Positions 6,583 through 61,971 of a stretch of 64,000 nucleotides of DNA are shown here, one piece after another (the stretch's first letter is position 1; every line of letters begins with the position of its first letter). Both the position numbers and the translations under genes were made by a program. The DNA comes from Octopus vulgaris (Eukaryota). The notes beneath the pieces were generated by a model. The model did no database searches. It had not been told where the DNA came from and saw only the letters and a program-made list of their open reading frames with translations. The stretch covers positions 76,322,001-76,386,000 of the forward strand of contig OX597820.1 of assembly GCA_951406725.2 (NCBI GenBank), read 5' to 3'.

Positions 6583-6652
<70 letters not shown>

Positions 6653-6653
<1 letters not shown>

Positions 6654-6903
6654 GGAGATGTACTTGCATAGCAAGTGATTTGATCTGAAATCGTGTGCTG
6701 AAACGAAAACAATTGCAGCGTGGAAGGTGTTTGTAAGCCATTTAAGAAACACACAAAAGCCGTTACGGATTTTTGTCAGTGAACAGGTCGCGGTCTTCAA
6801 GCGACGAAAATATTTTTACAAATTAATCTTAAATATTGAAGTGAATCGAACGGCTTTTGTGTGTTTCTTAAATGGCTTACGAACACCTTCCACGCTGCAA
6901 TTG

Positions 6904-6905
<2 letters not shown>
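6653..6905. mobile_element. Penelope-like non-coding element with 57-bp inverted arms
   Basis: Arms 6708-6764 and 6849-6905 are reverse complements with one mismatch; a hammerhead lies in the loop. Confidence 0.65.
6772..6822 (+). ncRNA. Minimal type-I hammerhead ribozyme, G3-C8 variant
   Basis: TTTGTCA-GTGAACA-G-GTCGC(ggtcttcaa)GCGAC-GAAA-ATATT-T-TTACAAA. Stem II is 5 bp, stem III is the palindrome AATATT, stem I pairs 6 of 7. Confidence 0.7.
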
Positions 6906-6996
<91 letters not shown>

Positions 6997-7000
<4 letters not shown>

Positions 7001-7242
7001 GTTGGTGCATAATTATTGCGGCTTCTCTGCAACAAATTTTATTCAACATAAACAATAACATCTAACAAAGACGTCTTTAAATGATTATTCCGGTTCATAT
7101 TCACCATCTACTTCAATTACTGCTTCCCATTTGCTTGGCAGACGATTAGACAACCATTTAAAGATATTTTGTTAAATAATGGTATTGTTTTTGTTGAATA
7201 CAATTTATTGAAAAGAAGCCGCAATACTTATGCACCAACCAA

Positions 7243-7243
<1 letters not shown>
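6997..7243 (-). mobile_element. Mariner-derived MITE (Hsmar1/MADE1-like TIRs)
   Basis: TIRs TTGGGTTGGTGCATAATTATTGCGGCTT / AAGCCGCAATACTTATGCACCAACCAAA; transposase C-terminal relic LPSKWEAVIEVDGEY on the minus strand. Confidence 0.8.
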
Positions 7244-14678: not shown

Positions 14679-15146
14679 GTGTAGTTGTGTATACGTCATA
14701 TAAGTGTATATATACATAAGTACATGTACGTACACGGAAGCACACACACGCACACATGCACAGACATATATGTGTGTGTGTTTATGTCAAGTTATATATA
14801 AAACAATTTACGATTGAGCGAAGAGATTGCACAATATTGTTTAGTAGAGTATATATTCATAAAACTTAAACAAGAAGCAAAGTGATTGTGACTTCGAAGT
14901 TTCAATCTGCTAACTTTTATCCACTATTGTACTGTATATGTATGTAGGCATATATTACATTATATAATTAGGGCTTAGTAAAATAAATTACTTTGCCACA
15001 TACTGAACTTTCTAGAAATAGCAGCCAAAAAGATTTTAGCCATTTCCACTACTTTAAGAAAACTTCTCTCAGATAATGTTTACTCAAAAATAACCCACGA
15101 AGGTATGGAGGTAAACACAGTAAAATATCACAAGTACAAAGATTAT

Positions 15147-15209
15147 TTGAGAACGTCAACGTTTCTAGATTAGCCGAACTAAAACTCAGCATTTCTTTCG
15201 TCAGCTCAA
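15147..15209 (-). ncRNA. Type-I hammerhead ribozyme (C3-G8), copy 1
   Basis: TTGAG-CTGACGA-A-AGA.GCTGAG(ttttag)TTCGGC.TCT-A-GAAACGT-TG-ACGT-T-CTCAA. Stem I 5 bp, stem III 3-4 bp, GUU site; closing of stem II is atypical (A/A). Confidence 0.6.
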
Positions 15210-15709
15210 CATTTCTTAATTTTGGATTTGAAAGCACTAAAAAAATGAATATACCATCCGATAATGTATCACCTCAGACAGACATCTTCAAACTGGCAAT
15301 ACTAGCAAATTCAAAATGTACAAGCGAAGATTCTTGTTCCTTCCCCTTCCACCCACGTGAGTTATCTAGTAAACATATTTTAACGGTAAGCACCGTAGCA
15401 AAGAACAGAGAAGGGAATTATAATATTAACAATTGAGGGTAAAATTAATTAGTTATTAATCAATTTCACCAAGTAGTGTTCAGTATGTAAAAGGACCATT
15501 TAAGGCGAATTCAAAATATTACATTATATAATTAGGGCTTAGTAAAATAAATTACTTTGCCACATACTGAACTTTCTAGAAATAGCAGCTAAAAAGTTTT
15601 TAGCCATTTCCACTACTTAAGAAAACTTCTCTCAGATAATGTTTACTCAAAAATAACCCACGAAGGTATGGAGGTAAAAACAGTAAAATATCACAAGTAC
15701 AAAGATCAT

Positions 15710-15772
15710 TTGAGAACGTCAACGTTTCTAGATTAGCCGAACTAAAACTCAGCATTTCTTTCGTCAGCTCAA
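15710..15772 (-). ncRNA. Type-I hammerhead ribozyme (C3-G8), copy 2
   Basis: Identical to copy 1, 563 bp away. Confidence 0.6.
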
Positions 15773-16193
15773 CATTTCTTAATTTTGGATTTGAAAGCAC
15801 TAAAAAAATGAACATACCATCCGATAATGTATCACCTCAGACAGACATCTTCAAACTGGCAGTACTAAAACGTTGACGTTCTCAAATGATCTTTGTACTT
15901 GTGTGATATTTTACTGTTTTTACCTCCATACCTTCGTGGGTTATTTTTGAGTAAACATTATCTGAGAGAAGTTTTCTTAAAGTAATGGAAATGGCTAAAA
16001 TCCTTTTGGCTGCTATTTCTAGAAAGTTCAGTATGTGGCAAAGTAATTTATTTTACTAAGCCCTAATTATATAATGTAATATTTTGAATTCGCCTTAAAT
16101 GGTCCTTTTACATACTGAACACTACTTGGTGAAATTGATTAATAACTAATTAATTTTACCCTCAATTGTTAATATTATGTAGGCACATATATA

Positions 16194-16772: not shown

Positions 16773-16989
16773 GTATATATATATGTATATATATGGAACA
16801 AAAACGTATTAGAGGGCATTAAAACGTTCGGACAGATAGACGAGACAAAGGCAGACAAGTGAAACAACAATTAAAAGAACAGGCAAAAAAAGACGGGTCA
16901 TTCTTGACTTTCTTTCATCGGTCAAGTACCAGAAGTCACGACCATTTCAGACGGAATAATTACCATAAAGCATTGTGCAGAATATATTG

Positions 16990-17180
16990 TATAAAGGATT
17001 GTGGGTAAGGCCACACACTCACATGCACATCGGCAACATTCGTCTATTTTTTGAAAATGGGATCATAACCCCGAAATATTGAATAAAAGGTAAGTGTACA
17101 TTTATTCTCACATTTGTTTTCTTGTGATTTACCTTGCATTTACTTCTAATTGCTTTTGGCCTTACCCACAATCCTTTATA
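16990..17180. mobile_element. Short element with perfect 24-bp inverted arms enclosing a hammerhead-like motif
   Basis: TATAAAGGATTGTGGGTAAGGCCA (16990-17013) and its reverse complement (17157-17180). Confidence 0.6.
17045..17085 (+). ncRNA. Minimal hammerhead-like motif, U3-A8 variant
   Basis: TATTTT-TTGAAAA-T-GGGAT(cata)ACCCC-GAAATATT-GAATA; one stem II mismatch and one extra T in stem I. Confidence 0.5.
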
Positions 17181-17199
17181 TAACACACACACCCACATA

Positions 17200-38062: not shown

Positions 38063-38446
38063 ATACGATTTTTAAAAATCAATATTTAAAATCTTTCTAT
38101 TTCGACAAATGTTTAGCTATACACTGAACGGAACGTTTTTCAGAGATGAAACTTTTATTTATTGTCCTAAACCCGTTTTATAGATTTTGATCCTGTCTGA
38201 CCGATAAAATATTCTTTGCACAATGGGCATATGGTGCATTAAATGATGCTTTTGTTTTGAAATTCGTATCTGCTTAAAGTTCAATTGTTTTCTATTCTTG
38301 AGCTTTTGGGTTTCGTCCTGTTCAATTATGAATATACATGCATATATATATATATTATTGAAAACAAGTGGATGTATTCCACCGAAACTAGGTAAATAAA
38401 ACCATCGAACAGAGATTGTCGGAAGCGACACCTACTGGCTGGCTAC

Positions 38447-38488
38447 GCTGCATTGAAAAGGGGCAATACCCCGAAACGCGTCTGTAGC
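38447..38488 (+). ncRNA. Intact minimal type-I hammerhead ribozyme, U3-A8 variant
   Basis: GCTGCA-TTGAAAA-GGGG(caata)CCCC-GAAAC-GC-GTC-TGTAGC. Stem I 6 bp, stem II 4 G-C pairs, palindromic ACGCGT stem III, GUC site with cleavage after 38482. Confidence 0.8.
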
Positions 38489-38651
38489 TGCCGGTCAAGT
38501 AGTGTGGAGCGACTGACCTCCCTTGTTCGAAGGTTATATGGATACAGTTTGTGTATCAAATAGCTAACTTAAGGCGATGGCCTCATGGAGCTAATAAGCG
38601 GACAGCTTTTTTCTTATTTTTATAAGAATGCCATATTAGTATGGCGATAAC

Positions 38652-42716: not shown

Positions 42717-44007
42717 CGAGGGACGTTCAATAAGTAATGCCTCTGACCCACTTGGAGTTGTTTGATCCAGCTGAAATTTTGCATGTGCAATCATTTATAT
42801 CTCTATAGAGTAAGTGGCAAATTACAGCTCTGAATTAATTGTGGTTTCTGATTTACAGGTGTTTGAACCGAGTCAAGTGTGAAATGGAGCCTGTTGAGTG
42901 TCGACCAGTGATCCGGTTTTTGTATTTGAAAGGACGCACACCACGGGAGACTTTTAATGAAATGAAAGTAACTTATGGTGATGATGCCCCATCATATGAC
43001 CTTGTAAAACGCTGGCATCGTGAATTCAAACATGGTCGGAACTCTGTGGAAACAGCTCCCAGATCTGGTCGCCCCTTCTGCCATTGATGAGGACGTCTGT
43101 CCGTCAAGTTGAGGCTGCCATTTTGGAAGATCGACGCATAATTATTCGCCAAATAGCCCATGAGGTCAAGATTAGTACCGGGTCTGAGGAAACTATCATT
43201 CATGACCATTTGCATATGCAAAAGGTGTCTGCCAGATGGATTCCCAGGTTGCTCACGTCTTTCCAGAAGCAAGAACGCGTCGAGTGCTCGAGGGTGAATT
43301 TGGAGATGTGCCAAGAAGATGAGTCAAAATTTTTCAAAAGACTGATTACACAGGATGAAACCTGGGTCCATCACGATGATCCAGAGACCAAAGTCCAGTC
43401 AATGCAGTGGAAGCACCGTGACTCACCCCCTCCAAAGAATGCAAGGGTGCAGCCCTCCGCTGGCAAGGTCATGCTCACAGTCTTCTGGGACCAGGACGGA
43501 GTAGTGATGACAGATTTCCTGGCAAAGGGTACCACAATTGCAGGAGCCTATTATGCTTCACTTTTGAGAAAATTAAGAGAAGTTATCAAAATGAAGAGGC
43601 GGGGCAAGTTCAGCAAAGGCATCCTCCTCCTGCAGGACAACACTCCGGTCCACAACTCGCTTGTCGCCAGATCAGAAGCACAGGCGTATGGCTATGAACT
43701 CCTCCCCCATCCCCCTACTTTCCTGACCTTGCACCCTCTGATTTTCACCTCTTCCCAGTCATGAAGTTGATTTTGAAAGGAAAGCGTTTCCCAGATGATG
43801 CAGCCTTGATTTCTGAAGTCACGTTCAGGTTGGAGGACCAAGCTGGGGTCTTCTAGAAAAACGGTCTCCAGAGCTGCATCAAACAATGGGAGAAATGCGT
43901 AACTCTGGGTGGTTGCTATGTAGAAAAGGACTAATAACTGTGCCAAGTTTCGTTGCTCTACTGCTATGGGAAGTGGGTCAGAGGCATTACTTATTGAACG
44001 CCCCTCG
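42717..44007 (+). mobile_element. Full-length mariner (DD34D, irritans/Hsmar2-like)
   Basis: TIRs CGAGGG(A/G)CGTTCAATAAGTAATGCCTCTGACCCACTT, TA TSD, inserted in (TATG)n. Confidence 0.95.
42884..43934 (+). pseudogene. Frameshifted mariner transposase
   Basis: RSGRP, WIPRLL, TQDETWVH, QDN, HPP..PDLAPSDF and YVEKD* motifs spread over three frames, plus an internal stop. Confidence 0.9.
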
Positions 44008-44033: not shown

Positions 44034-45392
44034 TTCCAGCCGATCACACTCACTCATATCATCGAGATATTTGAGAGGATGGTGAGATCACGGATAATCC
44101 ACTTTCTTGAAAGCGACAGATTACTGAACCCCAACCAACACGGGTTCCGTAGTGGAAGAAACTACCTAACGCAGCTCTTTGATGACATTTTGAGAGCTTT
44201 GGAGAGGACTCGAATACTGATGTCATCTACCTTGATTTCAGTCAGGCCTTTGACAAGGTGGATCATAAGATGCTCTTGAAAAAAAAAAACTATCCAACGT
44301 TGGTGTTCCTGGAAAGTTACAACGTGGATCAAGTGTTTCCTGACAGGCAGAACCCAAAACGTTGTAGTCGAAGGAGTAAAATCAAGCTCAGCCAAAGTCA
44401 GTAGTGGTGTTCCACAAGGCATTGTGTTGGACCCACTTCTTTTCATCATCTACATCAATGACAATACTGGCATCATCAAGCACAGCAACATAAGAATCTT
44501 TGCAGATGATTCCAAGATCCAGAAGCTCATCAATGAAGTGGGTGACAGGGCATGCCTTCAGTCAGATCTACTGGGTGTCATCCAATGGGCGGAAAAGAAT
44601 ATCATGCTGCTGAACGAGGATAAATTTGAGTTAATCCACTTCGGAAAAGAGGATACCCTGAAACGCCCATACTCCCTTCCTACAGGTGAAATTCTCATGG
44701 CATCCAACAACATCAGTGTCTTGGGAGTTATTGTGGACAACAACATAAGCTAGGCCGCTCATATAAACTGCAAAGTTAAAATGGCGCGCAGAATGTGTTT
44801 CTGGAATCTCAGAACTTTCCAGTCGAGAGTTATCCACACCATTATCCTTCCCATCTCTACTTTTGCCCGACCCCACCTTGAATACACGAAATAATCTATC
44901 ATGAAAATTGAAGCACCTCAAAGGTCAATTACAAAGGAGATAGATAGCATGACAGGCCTGACTATTGGGGTCGACTAGAAAAGCTCAAGCTTTATTCTTT
45001 CCAAAGCCCCCATGTGCAGTACATCATCTGCATGATGTGGAAAATGTTTCAACAGCACTGCGCAATTGATGTTGGCATCGCCTTTAAGATATACCCAAGA
45101 CTTGAACCCTGTGCTATCCGCCCACAGCATAAATCATACTCGCATCACATAACAATACGGCTGAATTATTTCACCTTAAGTGGCCCCGCTCTCTTTAACA
45201 ATACACCAAAAGCACATTAAAGGAGAAACAGAACTTAAATGAATCCCGGATAAACCTCCTACACCCAGATATGTCTCCGTAAACAACAATTCTCTCCTCG
45301 ACTGGGCCATGTTGTCCGATTCCTGATTTGAATGACTTTGCTATTAAGTTAGACATGGCCTAGGACAATAATGGCCGAAACCTATCAAAGTA
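44034..45392 (+). mobile_element. 5'-truncated CR1-group LINE (RT domain to 3' end), degraded
   Basis: QHGFRSGR, DFSQAFDKVDH, GVPQG.VL.PLLFIIYIND, FADD, RLEKLKLYS, GPALFN; many frameshifts. Confidence 0.9.
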
Positions 45393-45531: not shown

Positions 45532-45627
45532 ATCCAACCATGAAAACAAAAAGAGAGAACACAACAATGCGAGAACTTGGAACAAGTATAGTATAATTCG
45601 ACGGTCAGGAAAGAGGGAAAGTAGGAG

Positions 45628-45663
45628 GTTTTACCGATTCGAGCGGAGCTCTTCGTCAGAAAC
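45628..45663 (-). ncRNA. Minimal type-I hammerhead (C3-G8), A15.1 mutated
   Basis: GTTT-CTGACGA-A-GAGC(tcc)GCTC-GAAT-CGG-TA-AAAC; stems I and II are perfect. Confidence 0.6.
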
Positions 45664-47134
45664 ATAGGAAAATGAAAGGTCCAAAGAAGGGAAGACGGAG
45701 GAAAAAATCGCCAACGGGACACACGCGGTCACAAACATGAATATGCGCGCGCACACACACACACACACACACACGTGTACACATATATACATATATATAT
45801 ATATATATATATTTACATTCATGTGTGTGTACTAACTTAAGCAGGCAGACATACTCATCTATATATATATGAAATCAAATTTGTAAACAATACACCATTG
45901 TACTGATTTTTTTCTTACATTTGGGGAGGTGAACTATTTTTTTTCGAAAATAAGATTATTTTGAATTTTTTTCGTTTTCGTATTGCACTGACTTGAAAGG
46001 CATGTATTGAACCTGTAGAGATTTTTTTTTCATCTGTGACCCACATGCATGAATAACTGGATTAAAATATACATACTTCAATTGTTAGGTACAGGAGCAT
46101 AGACACTGACATATATATGCGGGAATTTCTATGTATTTTTGTTCATAAACTTTAAAAAAATACATAAAATAGAGAACTGTATATTTATTCTTATCACGGC
46201 ATTGTTCCTAAGCGTTTAGCGTCGAATGCCAGTCATGCAAATTGAGTTATTTGCGAAAAAGGAGAACGGAATTTATAAAGGAAAGCTTACGATCAAAACA
46301 AACTTGGGGGAAAATATTTCAAAATTTGATGTTAGTGCATTAGAAAAATATTTATATAATGTGGAATAAAGAGTATTTTTTAAGATATAGGGCGCATACG
46401 TGTCTGTGTGGTTGAAAAGCTTGCTTTCCAATCGTATGGTTTCGGATTCAGTTCCAATGTGCGGCATCTTGTAGTATTCTACTAAAGCAGCGTCAGGCCG
46501 ACCATAGCCTTTTGCGTGGGTTTGTTGGAGAAAAACTGAAAGAGACCCGTAGTGAATACCTGCATACACACACACGCACACACACGCACGCACCCACACA
46601 AACACACACACACACACACAAGCATACACATTTACTGAAACACGGACGCAGACACACGCATAGATGTATATACATACATATATATATACATATATAAATA
46701 CATATATAGATATATATATGTATGCATGTATATATATATATGCACACACACACGCACACACACACACACACACATACATACACATATATATAACAAAATT
46801 AATTGGGTGGCTTATTAGCTATTTAAACCTAAAGGCAGAATTAATAGAGGTTACAAAAGAGACGGAGGGTATTGACTTTGCCTTCCGGTTCAATTAAATA
46901 ACATATTTGCACACACACACACAGACGCACAAATGCATATGCATATATCGTGACACTCCGTCGGTTGCGACGACGAGGGTTTCACTTAATCGGATCAACG
47001 GAACAGAATGCTCGTGAAATTAACGTGCAAGTAGCTGAGCACTCCACAGACACGTGTACTGGTTGTACTTCTCAGGGAGATTCAGAGTGACACATAGAGA
47101 AACAGGCAGACTGTTTATTTATATATCTATCTAT

Positions 47135-58538: not shown

Positions 58539-59738
58539 CGAGGGGCGTTCAATAAGTAATGCCCCTGACCCACTTCCCATAGCAGTAGAGCAACGAAACT
58601 TGGCACAGTTATTAGTCTTTTTCTACATAGGAAGCATACAGAGTTACGCATTTCTCCCATCCTTTGATGCAGCTCTGAAGACTGATTTTGTAGAAGACCC
58701 AGCTTGGTCCTCCAACCACGACGTGACTTCAGAAATCAAGGCTGCATCATCTGGGAAACGCTTTCCTTTCAAAAACAACTTCATGGCTGGGAAGAGGTGA
58801 AAATCAGAGGTGCAAGGTGAGGAGAGTAGGGGGATGGGGGAGGAGTTCATAGCCGCACGCCTGTGCTTCTGATCTGGTGACACGCGAGTTGTGGACCGGG
58901 GCGTTGTCCTGCAGGAGGAGGATGCCTTTGCTGATCTTGCTCCGCCTCTTGATTTTGATAGCTTGTCTTAATTTCCTCAAAAGTGAAGCATAATAGGCTC
59001 CTGCAATTGTGGTACCCTTTGCCAGGAAATCTGTCATCACTACTCCGTCCTGTTCCCCAAAAACTGTGAGCATGACCTTGCCAGCGGAGGGTTGCACCCT
59101 TGCCTTCTTTGGAGGGGGTGAGTCACGGTGCTTCCACTGCATTGACTGGGCTTTGGTCTCTGGATCATAGTAATGGACCCAGGTTTCATCCTGTGTAATC
59201 AATTTTTTTGAAAAATTTTGACTCATCTTCTTGGCACATCTCCAAATTCACCCTCGAGCACACAACGCGTTCTTGCTTCTGGAAAGGCGTGAGCAACCTG
59301 GGAATCCATCTGGCAGACACCTTTTGCATATGCAAATGGTCATGAATGATAGTTTCCACAGACCCGGTACTAATCTTGACCTCATGGGCTATTTGGCGAA
59401 TAGTTATGCGTCGATCTTCCAAAATGGCAGCCTCAACTTGACGGACAGATGCCTCCTCAATGACAGAAGGAGGGCGACCAGATCTGGAAGCTGTTTCCAC
59501 AGAGTTCCGACCATGTTTGAATTCACGATGCCAGCGCTTTACAAGGTCATATGATGGGGCATCATCACCATAAGTTACTTTCATTTCATCAAAAGTCTCC
59601 CGTGGTGTGCGTCCTTTCAAATACAAAAACCGGATTGCCACTTAATCTATAGAGATATAAATAATTGCACATGAAAAATTTCAGCTAGATCAAACATCTG
59701 CAAGTGGGTCAGGGGCATTACTTATTGAACGTCCCTCG
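58539..59738 (-). mobile_element. Mariner, second copy of the 42.7-kb family, with 5' deletion
   Basis: Same TIRs and TA TSD; lacks the segment equivalent to 42821-42911, including the ATG; frameshifted transposase. Confidence 0.95.
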
Positions 59739-60020: not shown

Positions 60021-60314
60021 ACATATATATATATTTATACGTATATACATATGTGTATATATATATGTATGTATATATATATATGTATATATATATGTAT
60101 ATATACACATGTATATCGCTCTCTCTATATATAAAGACAGAGAGAGAGAGAGAGCGAGAGAGATACATACAAATGCACACTCACGCTCGCACAATCACCT
60201 ACACATTTACACATGCGTACTCCTCATATGAACCACACCTGTCATTCATAATCGAATACAGCTTAGTAGCATGTATAACTCCTCCGCTATTTGGATTAGG
60301 CGTCTGTGTACTTG

Positions 60315-61971
60315 TTTATCTCTTTCGGGACTCCTCTTTGATCTCTTTCGGTACCCCCCACCTTTGATCTCTGTCGGCACCCCCTTTGATCTCTTTCGGC
60401 ATCCCTTTGATCTCTTTCGGCACCCCCTTTGATCTATGTCGGCACCCTCTTCGATCTCTGTCGGCCCCCCTTTGATCTCTGTCGGCACCCTTTTTGATCT
60501 TTGTCGGCACCCCCTTTGATCTATGTCGGCACCCTCTTTGATCTCTGTCGGCCCCCCTTTGATCTCTGTCGGCACCCTTTTTATCTCTGTCGGCACCACC
60601 TTTGATCACTGTCGGCCCCCTTTGATCTCTGTCGGCACCCTCTTTATCTCTGTCGGCACCACCTTTGATCTCTGTCGGCCCCCCTTTGATCTCTGTCGGC
60701 ACCCTTTTTATCTCTGTCGGCACCACCTTTGATCTCTGTCGGCCCCCCTTTGATCTCTGTCGGCACCCCCTTTGATCTATGTCGGCACCCTCTTTGATCT
60801 ATGTCGGCACCCTTTTTTATCTCTGTCGGCACCCCCTTTGATCTCTGTCGGCCCCCCTTTGATCTCTGTCGGCACCCCCTTTGATCTATGTCGGCACCCT
60901 CTTTGATCTATGTCGGCACCCCCTTTGATCTCTTTCGGCCCACTTTTTTGATCTCTGTCGGCCCCCCTTTGATCTCTTTCGGCACCCCCTTTGATGTCTG
61001 TCGGCACCCTCTTTGATCTCTGCCCCCCTTGATGTCTGTCGGCACCCTCTTTGATCTCTGTCGGCACCCCATTTGATCTCTGTCGGCACCCTCTTTGATC
61101 TCTGTCGGCACCCCATTTGATCTCTGTCGGCACCCTCTTTGATCTATGTCGGCACCCTCTTTGATCTCTGTCGGCACCCCATTTGATCTCTGTCGGCACC
61201 CTCTTTGATCTCTGTCGGTCCCCTTTGATCTCTGTCGGCACCCTCTTTGATCTTTGTCGGCACCCTCTTTGATCTCTGTCGGCACCCCCTTTGATCTCTT
61301 TCGGCCCACTTTTTTGATCTCTGCCGGCACCCCTTTGATCTCTGTCGGCACCTTCTTTCATCTATGTCGGCACCCTCTTTGATCTATGTCGGCACCCTCT
61401 TTGATCTCTGTCGGCACCCTCTTTGATCTCTGTCGGTACCCACTTTGATCTCTGTCGGCCCCCCTTTGATCTCTGTCGGCACCCTCTTTGATCTCTGTCG
61501 GCCCCCTTTGATCTCTGTCGGCACCCTCTTTGATGTATGTCGGCCCCTTTGATCTCTGTCGGCACCCTCTTTGATCTATGTTGGCACCCTCTTTGATCTC
61601 TGCCCCCCTTTGATGTCTGTCGGCACCCTCTTTGATCTATGTCGGTACCCTCTTTGATCTCTGCCCCCCTTTGATGTCTTTCGGCACCCTCTTTGATCTC
61701 TGTCGGCACCCCATTTGATCTCTGTCGGCACACTCTTTGATCTCTTTCGGCATCCCCTTTGATCTCTTTCGGCACCCCTTTGATCTCTGTCGGCACCCTC
61801 TTTGATCTCTTTCGGCACTCCCTTTGATCTATTTCGGCACCCTCTTTTATCGCTTTCGGCACCCTTTTTGATCTCTTTCGGCACCCTCTTTGATTTCTTT
61901 CGGGACTCCTCTTTGATTTCTTTCGGCACCCACTTTGATCTCTGTCAAGATCCTCTTTGATCTCTTTCGGC
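60315..61971. repeat. About 22-bp GC-rich tandem satellite, roughly 75 units
   Basis: Consensus GATCTCTGTCGGCACCCTCTTT, units mostly 20-23 bp, no unique spacers. Confidence 0.95.

What the first reader, a model, noticed from the sequence alone, without database searches (positions are those of the whole stretch)
6708..6905. Rare G3-C8 hammerhead displayed in the loop of a 57-bp hairpin
Core GUGAACA with a perfect GUCGC/GCGAC stem II, enclosed by near-perfect inverted arms. The same arm-ribozyme-arm layout recurs with unrelated sequence at 16990-17180. It may be the inverted 5' pLTR typical of Penelope insertions, but a transcript would also be a long dsRNA (ADAR or Dicer substrate) with a cleavable loop, which matters in an editing-rich lineage.
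Basis: partly seen in the sequence, partly recalled or inferred. Interest (0 to 1): 0.7.

Follow-up and report, generated by a model that had tools for sequence, protein, structure and literature searches.

The report
Octopus Penelope stump, swapped hammerhead core
This hairpin is a short leftover of a Penelope-like jumping gene, likely of an octopus, whose front end lies once forwards and once backwards; the small RNA motif in its loop has two paired core letters swapped across the whole repeat family, which would be an unusual natural form of a self-cutting RNA, but this copy is predicted to misfold and cutting is untested.

Summary
The 57-bp arms (6708-6764/6849-6905, 56 of 57 Watson-Crick) and the G3-C8 minimal type I hammerhead (6772-6822) are real. 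The left arm runs 55 nt further and encodes 30 codons, 28 of 30 identical to the start of an Octopus protein. That protein links, through overlapping Octopus proteins, to full-length RT + Zn-linker + GIY-YIG Penelope-like ORFs. The locus is therefore a stump insertion in (TA)n: direct pLTR, inverted 5'-truncated copy and 'tail', the published Penelope layout. Contigs of 4 runs (3 species labels) show no variant at 5% or more at positions 3 or 8, so G3-C8 is family-wide. The arm breakpoint varies among copies, so the hairpin is a by-product. This copy has a private stem I mismatch (6817; G in 96-99% of family depth), predicted stem I pairing near 0.01, and no dimer partner, so a cleavable loop is unlikely. 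No editing or locus transcription was shown. The second site has 27-bp arms and a U3-A8 core. What remains new is a natural G3-C8 core fixed in an abundant animal element. I did not find it in the papers I could search, but the main survey (Lünse 2017) was not held.

The parts
6583..6652 (.). (TA)n run at the left end; likely the insertion target
   Evidence: (TA)n bias of Zn-linker PLEs from PMC8557442 passages
6653..6764 (-). Inverted, 5'-truncated copy of the element end (arm plus tail)
   Evidence: arm breakpoints of other copies
6653..6707 (-). 55-nt 'tail', present only at this end; covers codons 12-30 of the ORF
   Evidence: tail as described in PMC3846280 and PMC11167929
6652..6741 (-). 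First 30 codons of the Penelope-like ORF (ATG at 6741-6739)
   Evidence: 28 of 30 identical to residues 1-30 of P0004, Octopus sinensis
6708..6764 (-). Left arm of the 57-bp inverted repeat
6765..6905 (+). Direct pLTR piece: hammerhead, 5' leader and ORF start
6772..6822 (+). Minimal type I hammerhead motif: stem I 6772-6778/6816-6822 (C.U mismatch 6777/6817), core 6779-6785 with G3-C8, extra G 6786, stem II 6787-6791/6801-6805, GAA 6806-6808, palindrome 6809-6814, N17 = U6815; predicted cut after 6815
   Evidence: consensus layout in PMC4209133 Fig. S3
6849..6905 (+). Right arm of the inverted repeat
6872..6904 (+). Codons 1-11 of the same ORF in the direct copy; the copy ends here
   Evidence: tblastn of P0004 residues 1-11, 10 of 11 identical
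6905..6997 (.). (TA)n run at the right end
16987..17183 (+). Second, unrelated unit: 27-bp arms around a degenerate hammerhead-like motif with a U3-A8 core (17051-17057); likely a stump of another PLE family, not tested against family data

Best explanation
The stretch 6653-6905 is a stump of an endonuclease-bearing Penelope-like retrotransposon (its ORF start lies once in each direction), likely inserted into a (TA)n run in one event, and the hairpin is likely a by-product of that event rather than a selected RNA structure. Likely mechanism: the element's protein nicked both strands of the (TA)n run and began reverse transcription inside its own RNA at two sites, near codon 11 and near codon 30. 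One cDNA ran back through the uncut hammerhead to about the start of the RNA, the other stopped after about 112 nt, and the two 5' ends were joined head to head. The G3-C8 core is inherited from the parent family. There it likely works as a slow hammerhead that needs a dimer or the element's protein. In this copy it is likely dead because of a private mismatch in stem I and the lack of a partner. Shown: layout, ORF link, family-wide G3-C8, variable arm breakpoints, private mismatch. Inferred: priming sites, uncut template, any cleavage activity.
For: ORF link: the 30 codons hit 1 protein of 1.84 billion, at its N-terminus (P0003, O. bimaculoides, E 1.6e-4). P0004 (O. sinensis) begins with 28 of 30 identical residues. 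P0004 74-223 is 79% identical to P0109 (O. vulgaris), which reaches RT motif A, and P0004 25-223 matches full-length P0007 directly (E 8e-26). Of the 29 long relatives of P0005, 29 have RT motifs A, B and YxDD, 25 the CX2-5CxxC linker, and 17 the order RT, linker, YIG-type motif (patterns partly recalled). Layout: inverted 5'-truncated copy with a one-sided tail (PMC8557442); pLTR holding the first ORF codons with the tail adding more (PMC3846280); the tail equals the gap between two RT start sites, and unprocessed RNA is the main template (PMC11167929). Family data: 10 distinct left breakpoints (6669-6728) among the joints shown, all joined within about 15 nt upstream of stem I; loose ends share only about 9 letters upstream of 6765; no pile-up of ends at the cut site (table 6 empty); no row at 6779 or 6784; G at 6817 in 96-99%. 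Both arms carry the same state at the family-variable mirror pairs 6733/6880 and 6759/6854, as expected from one source. Fold: stem II P about 0.99, stem I about 0.01.
Against: No full-length Octopus element with this pLTR was recovered: no genome is held, and the chain to the full ORF runs through partial and chimeric gene models (P0004 ends in a methyltransferase domain). Pfam support for the long relatives is weak and below the curated cut-offs (RVT_1 in 5 of 29, GIY-YIG in 6 of 29). No target-site duplication can be read inside (TA)n. One search shows only 15 joints in table 5 and 12 rows in table 5c (47 more not shown in each) and 24 loose ends (689 not shown), and contigs cannot show RNA ends. 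Constraint on the ribozyme is only suggestive: variable sites are 1 of 42 structured positions against 7 of 47 in loop II and the adjacent leader (Fisher p=0.06), or against 13 of 150 elsewhere (p=0.31).
Confidence: 0.88

Rival explanations
1. Functional self-cleaving dsRNA hairpin: the locus is transcribed, ADAR or Dicer act on the 57-bp stem, and the ribozyme opens the loop as a regulatory switch.
For: The stem is near-perfect, with 21 A in the left arm and 12 in the right. Octopus has much long dsRNA and hyper-editing, and lizard Penelope is heavily edited (PMC5625713 passages). Family contigs occur in a run guessed to be RNA, some bridging an inverted junction (records 13 and 14).
Against: Private stem I mismatch and P about 0.01 for stem I. 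Monomeric minimal hammerheads gave no detectable cleavage. Arm length is not conserved. The A>G and T>C rows in the RNA-guess run also stand in the DNA runs. No host-gene domain was found in 135 reading frames; the 5 frames above Pfam cut-offs are transposase, its HTH domains and RT. No contig spans the locus. Editing of the stem is plausible if it is transcribed, but that would be ordinary for any inverted repeat.
Confidence: 0.06
2. The G3-C8 motif is vestigial in the whole family: an inactivated or non-catalytic hammerhead fold kept only as a protein-binding or promoter element. The locus is still a PLE stump.
For: Copies keep the whole motif rather than starting at the cut site. In the anole element, hammerhead catalysis is not needed for insertion in vitro. 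The double swap restores activity only partly. Constraint tests are not significant except for CpG sites. Rfam gives no hammerhead match.
Against: Two changes that keep the 3-8 pair are hard to explain without selection for that tertiary pair. All other core positions match the published consensus. The only family variant in the stems (A6818G, 4-7%) keeps pairing as G.U. 0 of 8 CpG positions in stem II reach 5% against 5 of 8 outside (p=0.026, post hoc, threshold-dependent).
Confidence: 0.3
3. A non-autonomous DNA transposon (MITE) with terminal inverted repeats and a TA target, the hammerhead being incidental.
For: Short unit with inverted ends between TA runs; Mariner-type elements are present in the window.
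Against: The ends are asymmetric by 55 nt, the arm length differs among copies, and the arms encode the start of an RT-bearing ORF.
Confidence: 0.02
4. A retrozyme or hammerhead satellite monomer that spreads through circular RNA.
For: Animal retrozymes are proposed to derive from PLE pLTRs (bioRxiv 2026.07.22.740005).
Against: Single copy in the window, no tandem array. Ends lie at ORF codons 11 and 30, not at the cut site. An inverted copy with a tail is a PLE trait.
Confidence: 0.04

Closest known systems
Insertion units of EN+ Penelope-like elements with inverted pLTR and tail (Arkhipova et al. 2013, PMC3846280; Craig et al. 2021, PMC8557442)
   Same: Direct pLTR holding the first ORF codons, adjacent shorter inverted copy joined head to head, tail at one end only, (TA)n target.
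   Different: Only the pLTR part is present (253 nt, no internal ORF); the tail is 55 nt against the 30-40 reported; no readable target-site duplication.
Minimal type I hammerheads of metazoan PLEs (Cervera and De la Pena 2014, PMC4209133)
   Same: U-rich 5' flank, 7-nt first box, one extra base before stem II, G10.1-C11.1, GAAA, palindromic helix III region, U at N17 as in many listed motifs, AU-rich 3' flank.
   Different: Core pair is G3-C8: 0 of 56 motifs in their Fig. S3 (53 begin with C, 3 with U) and 0 of 34 rows in File S2 of PMC8557442. Stem I is 7 bp in the family, longer than most listed.
Poseidon element of Anolis carolinensis, PAc (Frangieh et al. 2024, PMC11167929)
   Same: Hammerhead near the ORF start, two element ends inside the ORF start; the laboratory C3G/G8C double mutant, the same pair as here, partly restores protein-assisted cleavage.
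   Different: There G3-C8 is an engineered rescue, here it is the natural state. There the ORF starts inside the ribozyme, here 93 nt after position 3. The relatives found here carry a Zn-linker (Neptune/Nematis type) that Poseidon lacks.
Natural U3-A8 core covariants (Perreault et al. 2011, PMC3088659; Schistosoma Cercyon PLEs, PMC4209133)
   Same: Compensated change of the 3-8 pair in nature.
   Different: A different pair. The second site (17051) and the motif at 38453 are of this known kind.

Membership tests
EN+ Penelope-like element (pLTR stump) | Sequence belongs to an ORF with telomerase-like RT followed by a GIY-YIG endonuclease | tested here: met
   Chain of overlaps from window codons 1-30 to P0004, P0109 and P0007; RT motifs in 29 of 29 relatives and RT-linker-YIG order in 17 of 29. 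Pfam hits are weak.
EN+ Penelope-like element (pLTR stump) | pLTR contains the ORF start; one-sided tail extends it | tested here: met
   Direct copy ends after codon 11, inverted copy at codon 30
EN+ Penelope-like element (pLTR stump) | Adjacent inverted 5'-truncated copy of variable length | tested here: met
   This locus and 10 other breakpoints among the joints shown
EN+ Penelope-like element (pLTR stump) | Full-length element flanked by two direct pLTRs with this hammerhead | not testable with these tools
   No genome held
EN+ Penelope-like element (pLTR stump) | Target-site duplication | tested here: inconclusive
   Both flanks are (TA)n
Neptune or Nematis clade | CX2-5CxxC linker between RT and EN | tested here: met
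   25 of 29 relatives; seen in relatives about 37-41% identical, not in an Octopus full-length ORF
Neptune or Nematis clade | Phylogenetic placement of the RT | not tested
   No named reference set was available as tool sequences
Minimal type I hammerhead of PLEs | Conserved core with a Watson-Crick 3-8 pair, G5, A6, A9, G12, A13, A14, A15.1-U16.1, H17 | tested here: met
   All present, with 3-8 as G-C; no variant at 5% or more in 4 runs
Minimal type I hammerhead of PLEs | Stem II closed by G10.1-C11.1 with one extra base after A9; palindromic helix III region | tested here: met
   against the consensus
Minimal type I hammerhead of PLEs | Stem I paired next to the cut site | tested here: inconclusive
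   Not met in this copy (C.U at 6777/6817, P about 0.01); met in the family (G6817 in 96-99%)
Minimal type I hammerhead of PLEs | Self-cleavage as a dimer or with protein | not testable with these tools
   Needs an assay
Rfam hammerhead families | Covariance-model match | tested here: not met
   0 of 18 matches at E<=10 in 6720-6900 is a hammerhead
Non-LTR retrozyme | Tandem repeats, each with a hammerhead | tested here: not met
   One copy in the window

The most novel reading that the evidence does not exclude
One of the abundant repeats of Octopus genomes is a Penelope-like family that has fixed the swapped G3-C8 catalytic pair, known to me in print only as an engineered partial rescue. The ribozyme still cleaves, slowly and only as a dimer or with the element's protein. 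This lets most RNAs reach reverse transcription uncut, which is why copies begin just upstream of the intact ribozyme. It would be a natural test of what hammerheads do for Penelope elements and would show that CUGANGA-based surveys miss whole high-copy animal families.
Probability: 0.35. Interest if true: 0.5.

Novelty: new variant of a known kind. Interest (0 to 1): 0.3.

Why it matters
The hairpin-with-ribozyme layout is an ordinary Penelope insertion product, so it is not a new RNA device. The part worth keeping is the family-wide G3-C8 core. The role of hammerheads in Penelope elements is open (dispensable for insertion in vitro in PMC11167929). A very abundant family with a compensated core swap argues that the catalytic fold is under selection and gives a natural construct for testing it. 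It also shows that pattern searches fixed on C3-G8 or U3-A8 undercount animal hammerheads. Such stumps may also be one common source of the long near-perfect dsRNA reported in octopus (PMC5625713); that link is untested.

Tried and rejected
No whole genome was available. Rfam gave only microsatellite and hairpin miRNA look-alikes in the 150 of 445 rows shown for the window and no hammerhead in 18 rows for the locus. A 17-base pattern scan gave 120 metagenome and 4 viral loci; the best alignment to the element among all 124 was 26 nt, so they were rejected as chance. The ratio of depth in the RNA-guess run X11 to run X1 rises near the predicted cut site, but run X2 (kind not on record, contig yield like the DNA runs) shows the same rise, and contigs cannot show RNA ends, so it was rejected as evidence of cleavage. 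Editing: no A>G or T>C row is specific to X11; family pooling and contig collapse make this weak. A co-fold of two native motif copies did not give a dimeric hammerhead fold; nearest-neighbour folding handles such junctions poorly, so this is not weighed. The family-majority RNA was not folded, so stem I in the family rests on inspection of base pairs only. tblastn of 34 PLE-related proteins found no coding remnant in the window other than the two ORF-start pieces, so the second site has no ORF link. The Atlas search of P0003 gave nothing useful; that of P0005 gave eukaryotic DUF8422 clusters. NCBIfam gave one weak RT hit in 5 proteins; PDB sequences gave 0 hits. A downstream-promoter-element reading of 6786-6790 was considered and dropped because the spacing is 3 nt off (recalled rule). 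Lünse et al. 2017, the largest survey of PLE hammerhead variants, is not held. File 1 of the PMC4209133 supplement could not be searched, and bioRxiv supplements are closed; any of these could already list G3-C8. No earlier scan note matched by sequence.

Full report
1. Observation. The arms 6708-6764 and 6849-6905 pair over 57 bp with one U.G position, and the fold is far beyond chance (z -16, 0 of 200 shuffles). The 84-nt loop holds a minimal type I hammerhead layout: stem I 6772-6778/6816-6822, first box 6779-6785 with G3 and C8, one extra G, a 5-bp stem II closed by G-C, GAA, a self-complementary hexamer at 6809-6814 and U17 at 6815. My descriptor found 2 motifs in the window (6779 and 38453); 30 shuffles gave 2 hits in all, 1 as strong as the 6779 hit, so a motif of this strength is uncommon by chance but not excluded by the descriptor alone. 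Rfam has no hammerhead match here (0 of 18 rows). In this copy stem I has a C.U mismatch at 6777/6817. Predicted pairing is about 0.99 for stem II and about 0.01 for stem I, because 6776-6781 pairs with 6834-6839 instead; without the arms stem I reaches only 0.13-0.17. The second site has 27-bp arms (26 of 27) and a U3-A8 core with a 3-bp stem II and stem I one base out of register; it shares no sequence with the first.

2. The element is larger than reported. The left arm continues for 55 nt to 6653, and both ends abut (TA)n runs (6583-6652, 6905-6997). Read on the minus strand, 6741-6652 is an open frame of 30 codons from ATG. Against 1.84 billion representative proteins it hit one, at its N-terminus (P0003, Octopus bimaculoides). 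P0003 found P0004 (O. sinensis), whose first 30 residues are 28 of 30 identical and which continues past the element end, and P0005 (O. vulgaris). P0004 74-223 is 79% identical to P0109 (O. vulgaris), which reaches RT motif A; P0109 is 41% identical over 473 residues to the 1045-aa P0007; P0004 25-223 also matches P0007 directly (E 8e-26). All 29 long relatives of P0005 carry RT motifs A, B and YxDD; 25 carry the CX2-5CxxC linker and 17 show the order RT, linker, YIG-type motif (patterns partly recalled). Pfam sees RVT_1 in 5 and GIY-YIG in 6 of the 29, all below cut-off. This is the domain order of C-terminal-endonuclease Penelope-like elements with the linker of the Neptune and Nematis clades (PMC8557442 passages); the clade was not tested by a tree. 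The direct copy holds codons 1-11 (6872-6904) and stops there. The host is inferred to be an octopus from these protein names only.

3. Family data. One search listed 24 runs, 20 holding part of the stretch, under 5 organism labels and one metagenome. Four were laid at 80% likeness with a 5% listing threshold: 14152, 4728, 8637 and 1169 contigs, from 3 organism labels. No row appears at 6779 or 6784, in stem II, in GAA or in 6809-6816, although depth there is high in all 4 runs; G3-C8 is therefore the family state. Five positions are private to this copy (6689, 6798, 6817, 6827, 6835; other letter in 90-100% of depth). At 6817 the family has G in 95.8-99.3%, which gives 7 contiguous pairs in stem I by inspection. 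The one family variant in the stems (6818 A>G, 4-7%) keeps a G.U pair. Constraint is suggestive only: 1 of 42 structured positions vary against 7 of 47 in loop II and leader (p=0.06) or 13 of 150 elsewhere (p=0.31); 0 of 8 CpG positions in stem II against 5 of 8 outside (p=0.026, post hoc) (the junction 6757-6770 and the poorly covered 6861-6908 were left out). Among the joints shown (15 rows in table 5, 12 in table 5c; 47 more not shown in each), 10 distinct left breakpoints (6669, 6671, 6673, 6678, 6679, 6688, 6692, 6707, 6713, 6728) join the hammerhead side within about 15 nt upstream of stem I. Eight of the 10 lie inside the tail, so such copies would form no hairpin unless their right end also kept the tail; ascertainment may favour these. 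Loose ends share about 9 letters upstream of 6765 and then lose agreement (about 0.5). Table 6 lists no pile-up of ends, and none of the 24 loose ends shown lies at the cut site (689 not shown). Both arms of this copy agree at the family-variable mirror pairs 6733/6880 and 6759/6854.

4. How it likely works. Published Penelope insertions have an inverted 5'-truncated copy next to the upstream pLTR and a tail at one end (PMC8557442 passages). In rotifers the pLTR holds the first 12 codons and the tail extends this to 22 (PMC3846280 passages). In the anole element, both target strands are nicked and extended, reverse transcription starts at two sites inside the ORF start whose distance is the tail, unprocessed RNA is the main template, the ribozyme cleaves only with protein, and the C3G/G8C double mutant partly restores cleavage (PMC11167929, parts 1-2 of 4). 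Applied here (inference): priming near codon 30 gave the 112-nt inverted copy; priming near codon 11 gave the direct copy, which ran through the uncut hammerhead to near the RNA start; the two 5' ends were joined. The clustering of 5' ends just upstream of stem I likely marks the transcript start; an initiator-like YYA motif lies there in two runs' loose-end lines (motif rule recalled). The ribozyme of the family likely acts slowly, through pairing of two palindromic hexamers or with protein help: single minimal motifs gave no cleavage and multimers little (PMC4209133; review PMC6765202). U at position 17 may suit G3, since a G3-C8 variant did worse with C17 (PMC3884650 passage, data not shown there), but U17 is common in PLE motifs anyway. 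This copy, with a broken pair next to the cut site and no partner in the window, is likely inactive.

5. The dsRNA idea. If transcribed, a 57-bp stem would be an ADAR substrate like any inverted repeat; octopus has much such dsRNA and lizard Penelope is heavily edited (PMC5625713 passages). Nothing here shows transcription of this locus. No contig spans it, the RNA label of X11 is a guess, its A>G and T>C rows also stand in the other runs, and 135 reading frames of 65 aa or more gave only transposase, HTH and RT domains above Pfam cut-offs (5 frames). Short exons would be missed.

6. Comparison and novelty. The layout is already known. The ribozyme matches the metazoan PLE consensus except at the 3-8 pair. 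Natural covariation in the papers read is U3-A8 (PMC3088659, passages and part of section 3; PMC4209133). G3-C8 occurs in 0 of 56 motifs of Fig. S3 of PMC4209133 and 0 of 34 rows of File S2 of PMC8557442. Searches for it in print returned it only as an engineered mutant (PMC11167929; PMC8495972 passage; PMC3884650); searches with octopus or mollusc terms returned no report of this motif, judged from listings and the passages read. An O. vulgaris repeat annotation lists Penelope families without mention of hammerheads (PMC13282606 passages). Lünse et al. 2017 is not held (title only), so prior description cannot be excluded. Also seen: bioRxiv 2026.07.22.740005, part 1 of 5, and one irrelevant passage of PMC6155905. 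Unchecked notes of this scan report natural G3-C8 in phages and protist PLEs, and similar stumps in a shark; they are leads, and they suggest the swap is not unique to this family.

7. Verdict. Observation mostly right; Penelope reading confirmed and extended; cleavable-hairpin reading unsupported. New variant of a known kind, interest 0.3.

Noticed in passing
window 14941-16185: Larger PLE-like unit: 14952-15304 repeats 15516-15868 (98%), 15868-16178 is an inverted copy of 15420-15727 (98%), and a 10-bp duplication flanks it (14941, 16176). Two minus-strand hammerhead-like C3-G8 boxes (ending 15204 and 15767) have a long interrupted stem II; the predicted fold does not form the hammerhead. 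No ORF link found.
   Followed up: partly
window 38444-38490: Clean minimal hammerhead with a U3-A8 core, 4-bp G-C stem II, palindromic hexamer and C17 on the + strand; no inverted arms nearby.
   Followed up: partly
window 45610-45670, minus strand: Degenerate hammerhead-like motif with a canonical C3-G8 box and a changed A15.1, next to a (TA)n run; likely a stump of another PLE family.
   Followed up: no
window 17089-17095: A GTAAGT splice-donor-like hexamer follows the second hammerhead-like motif, with a pyrimidine-rich stretch behind it; PLE pLTRs can hold introns.
   Followed up: no
window 6997-7243: About 247-bp element with 30-bp terminal inverted repeats (28 of 30) directly after the right (TA)n run; MITE-like.
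   Followed up: partly
window 42839-43735 and 58807-59641: Two inverted copies of a Mariner-type transposase fragment (HTH_48, Transposase_1).
   Followed up: no
window 44186-44750: RT fragment (RVT_1, E 6e-9) not matched by the PLE proteins in tblastn; likely another retroelement class.
   Followed up: no
window 60287-61600: Minisatellite of about 22-nt units.
   Followed up: no
proteins P0003, P0004, P0006: Octopus gene models that are in part this element's ORF; P0004 is a chimera with a methyltransferase domain, so the family contaminates the annotation.
   Followed up: partly
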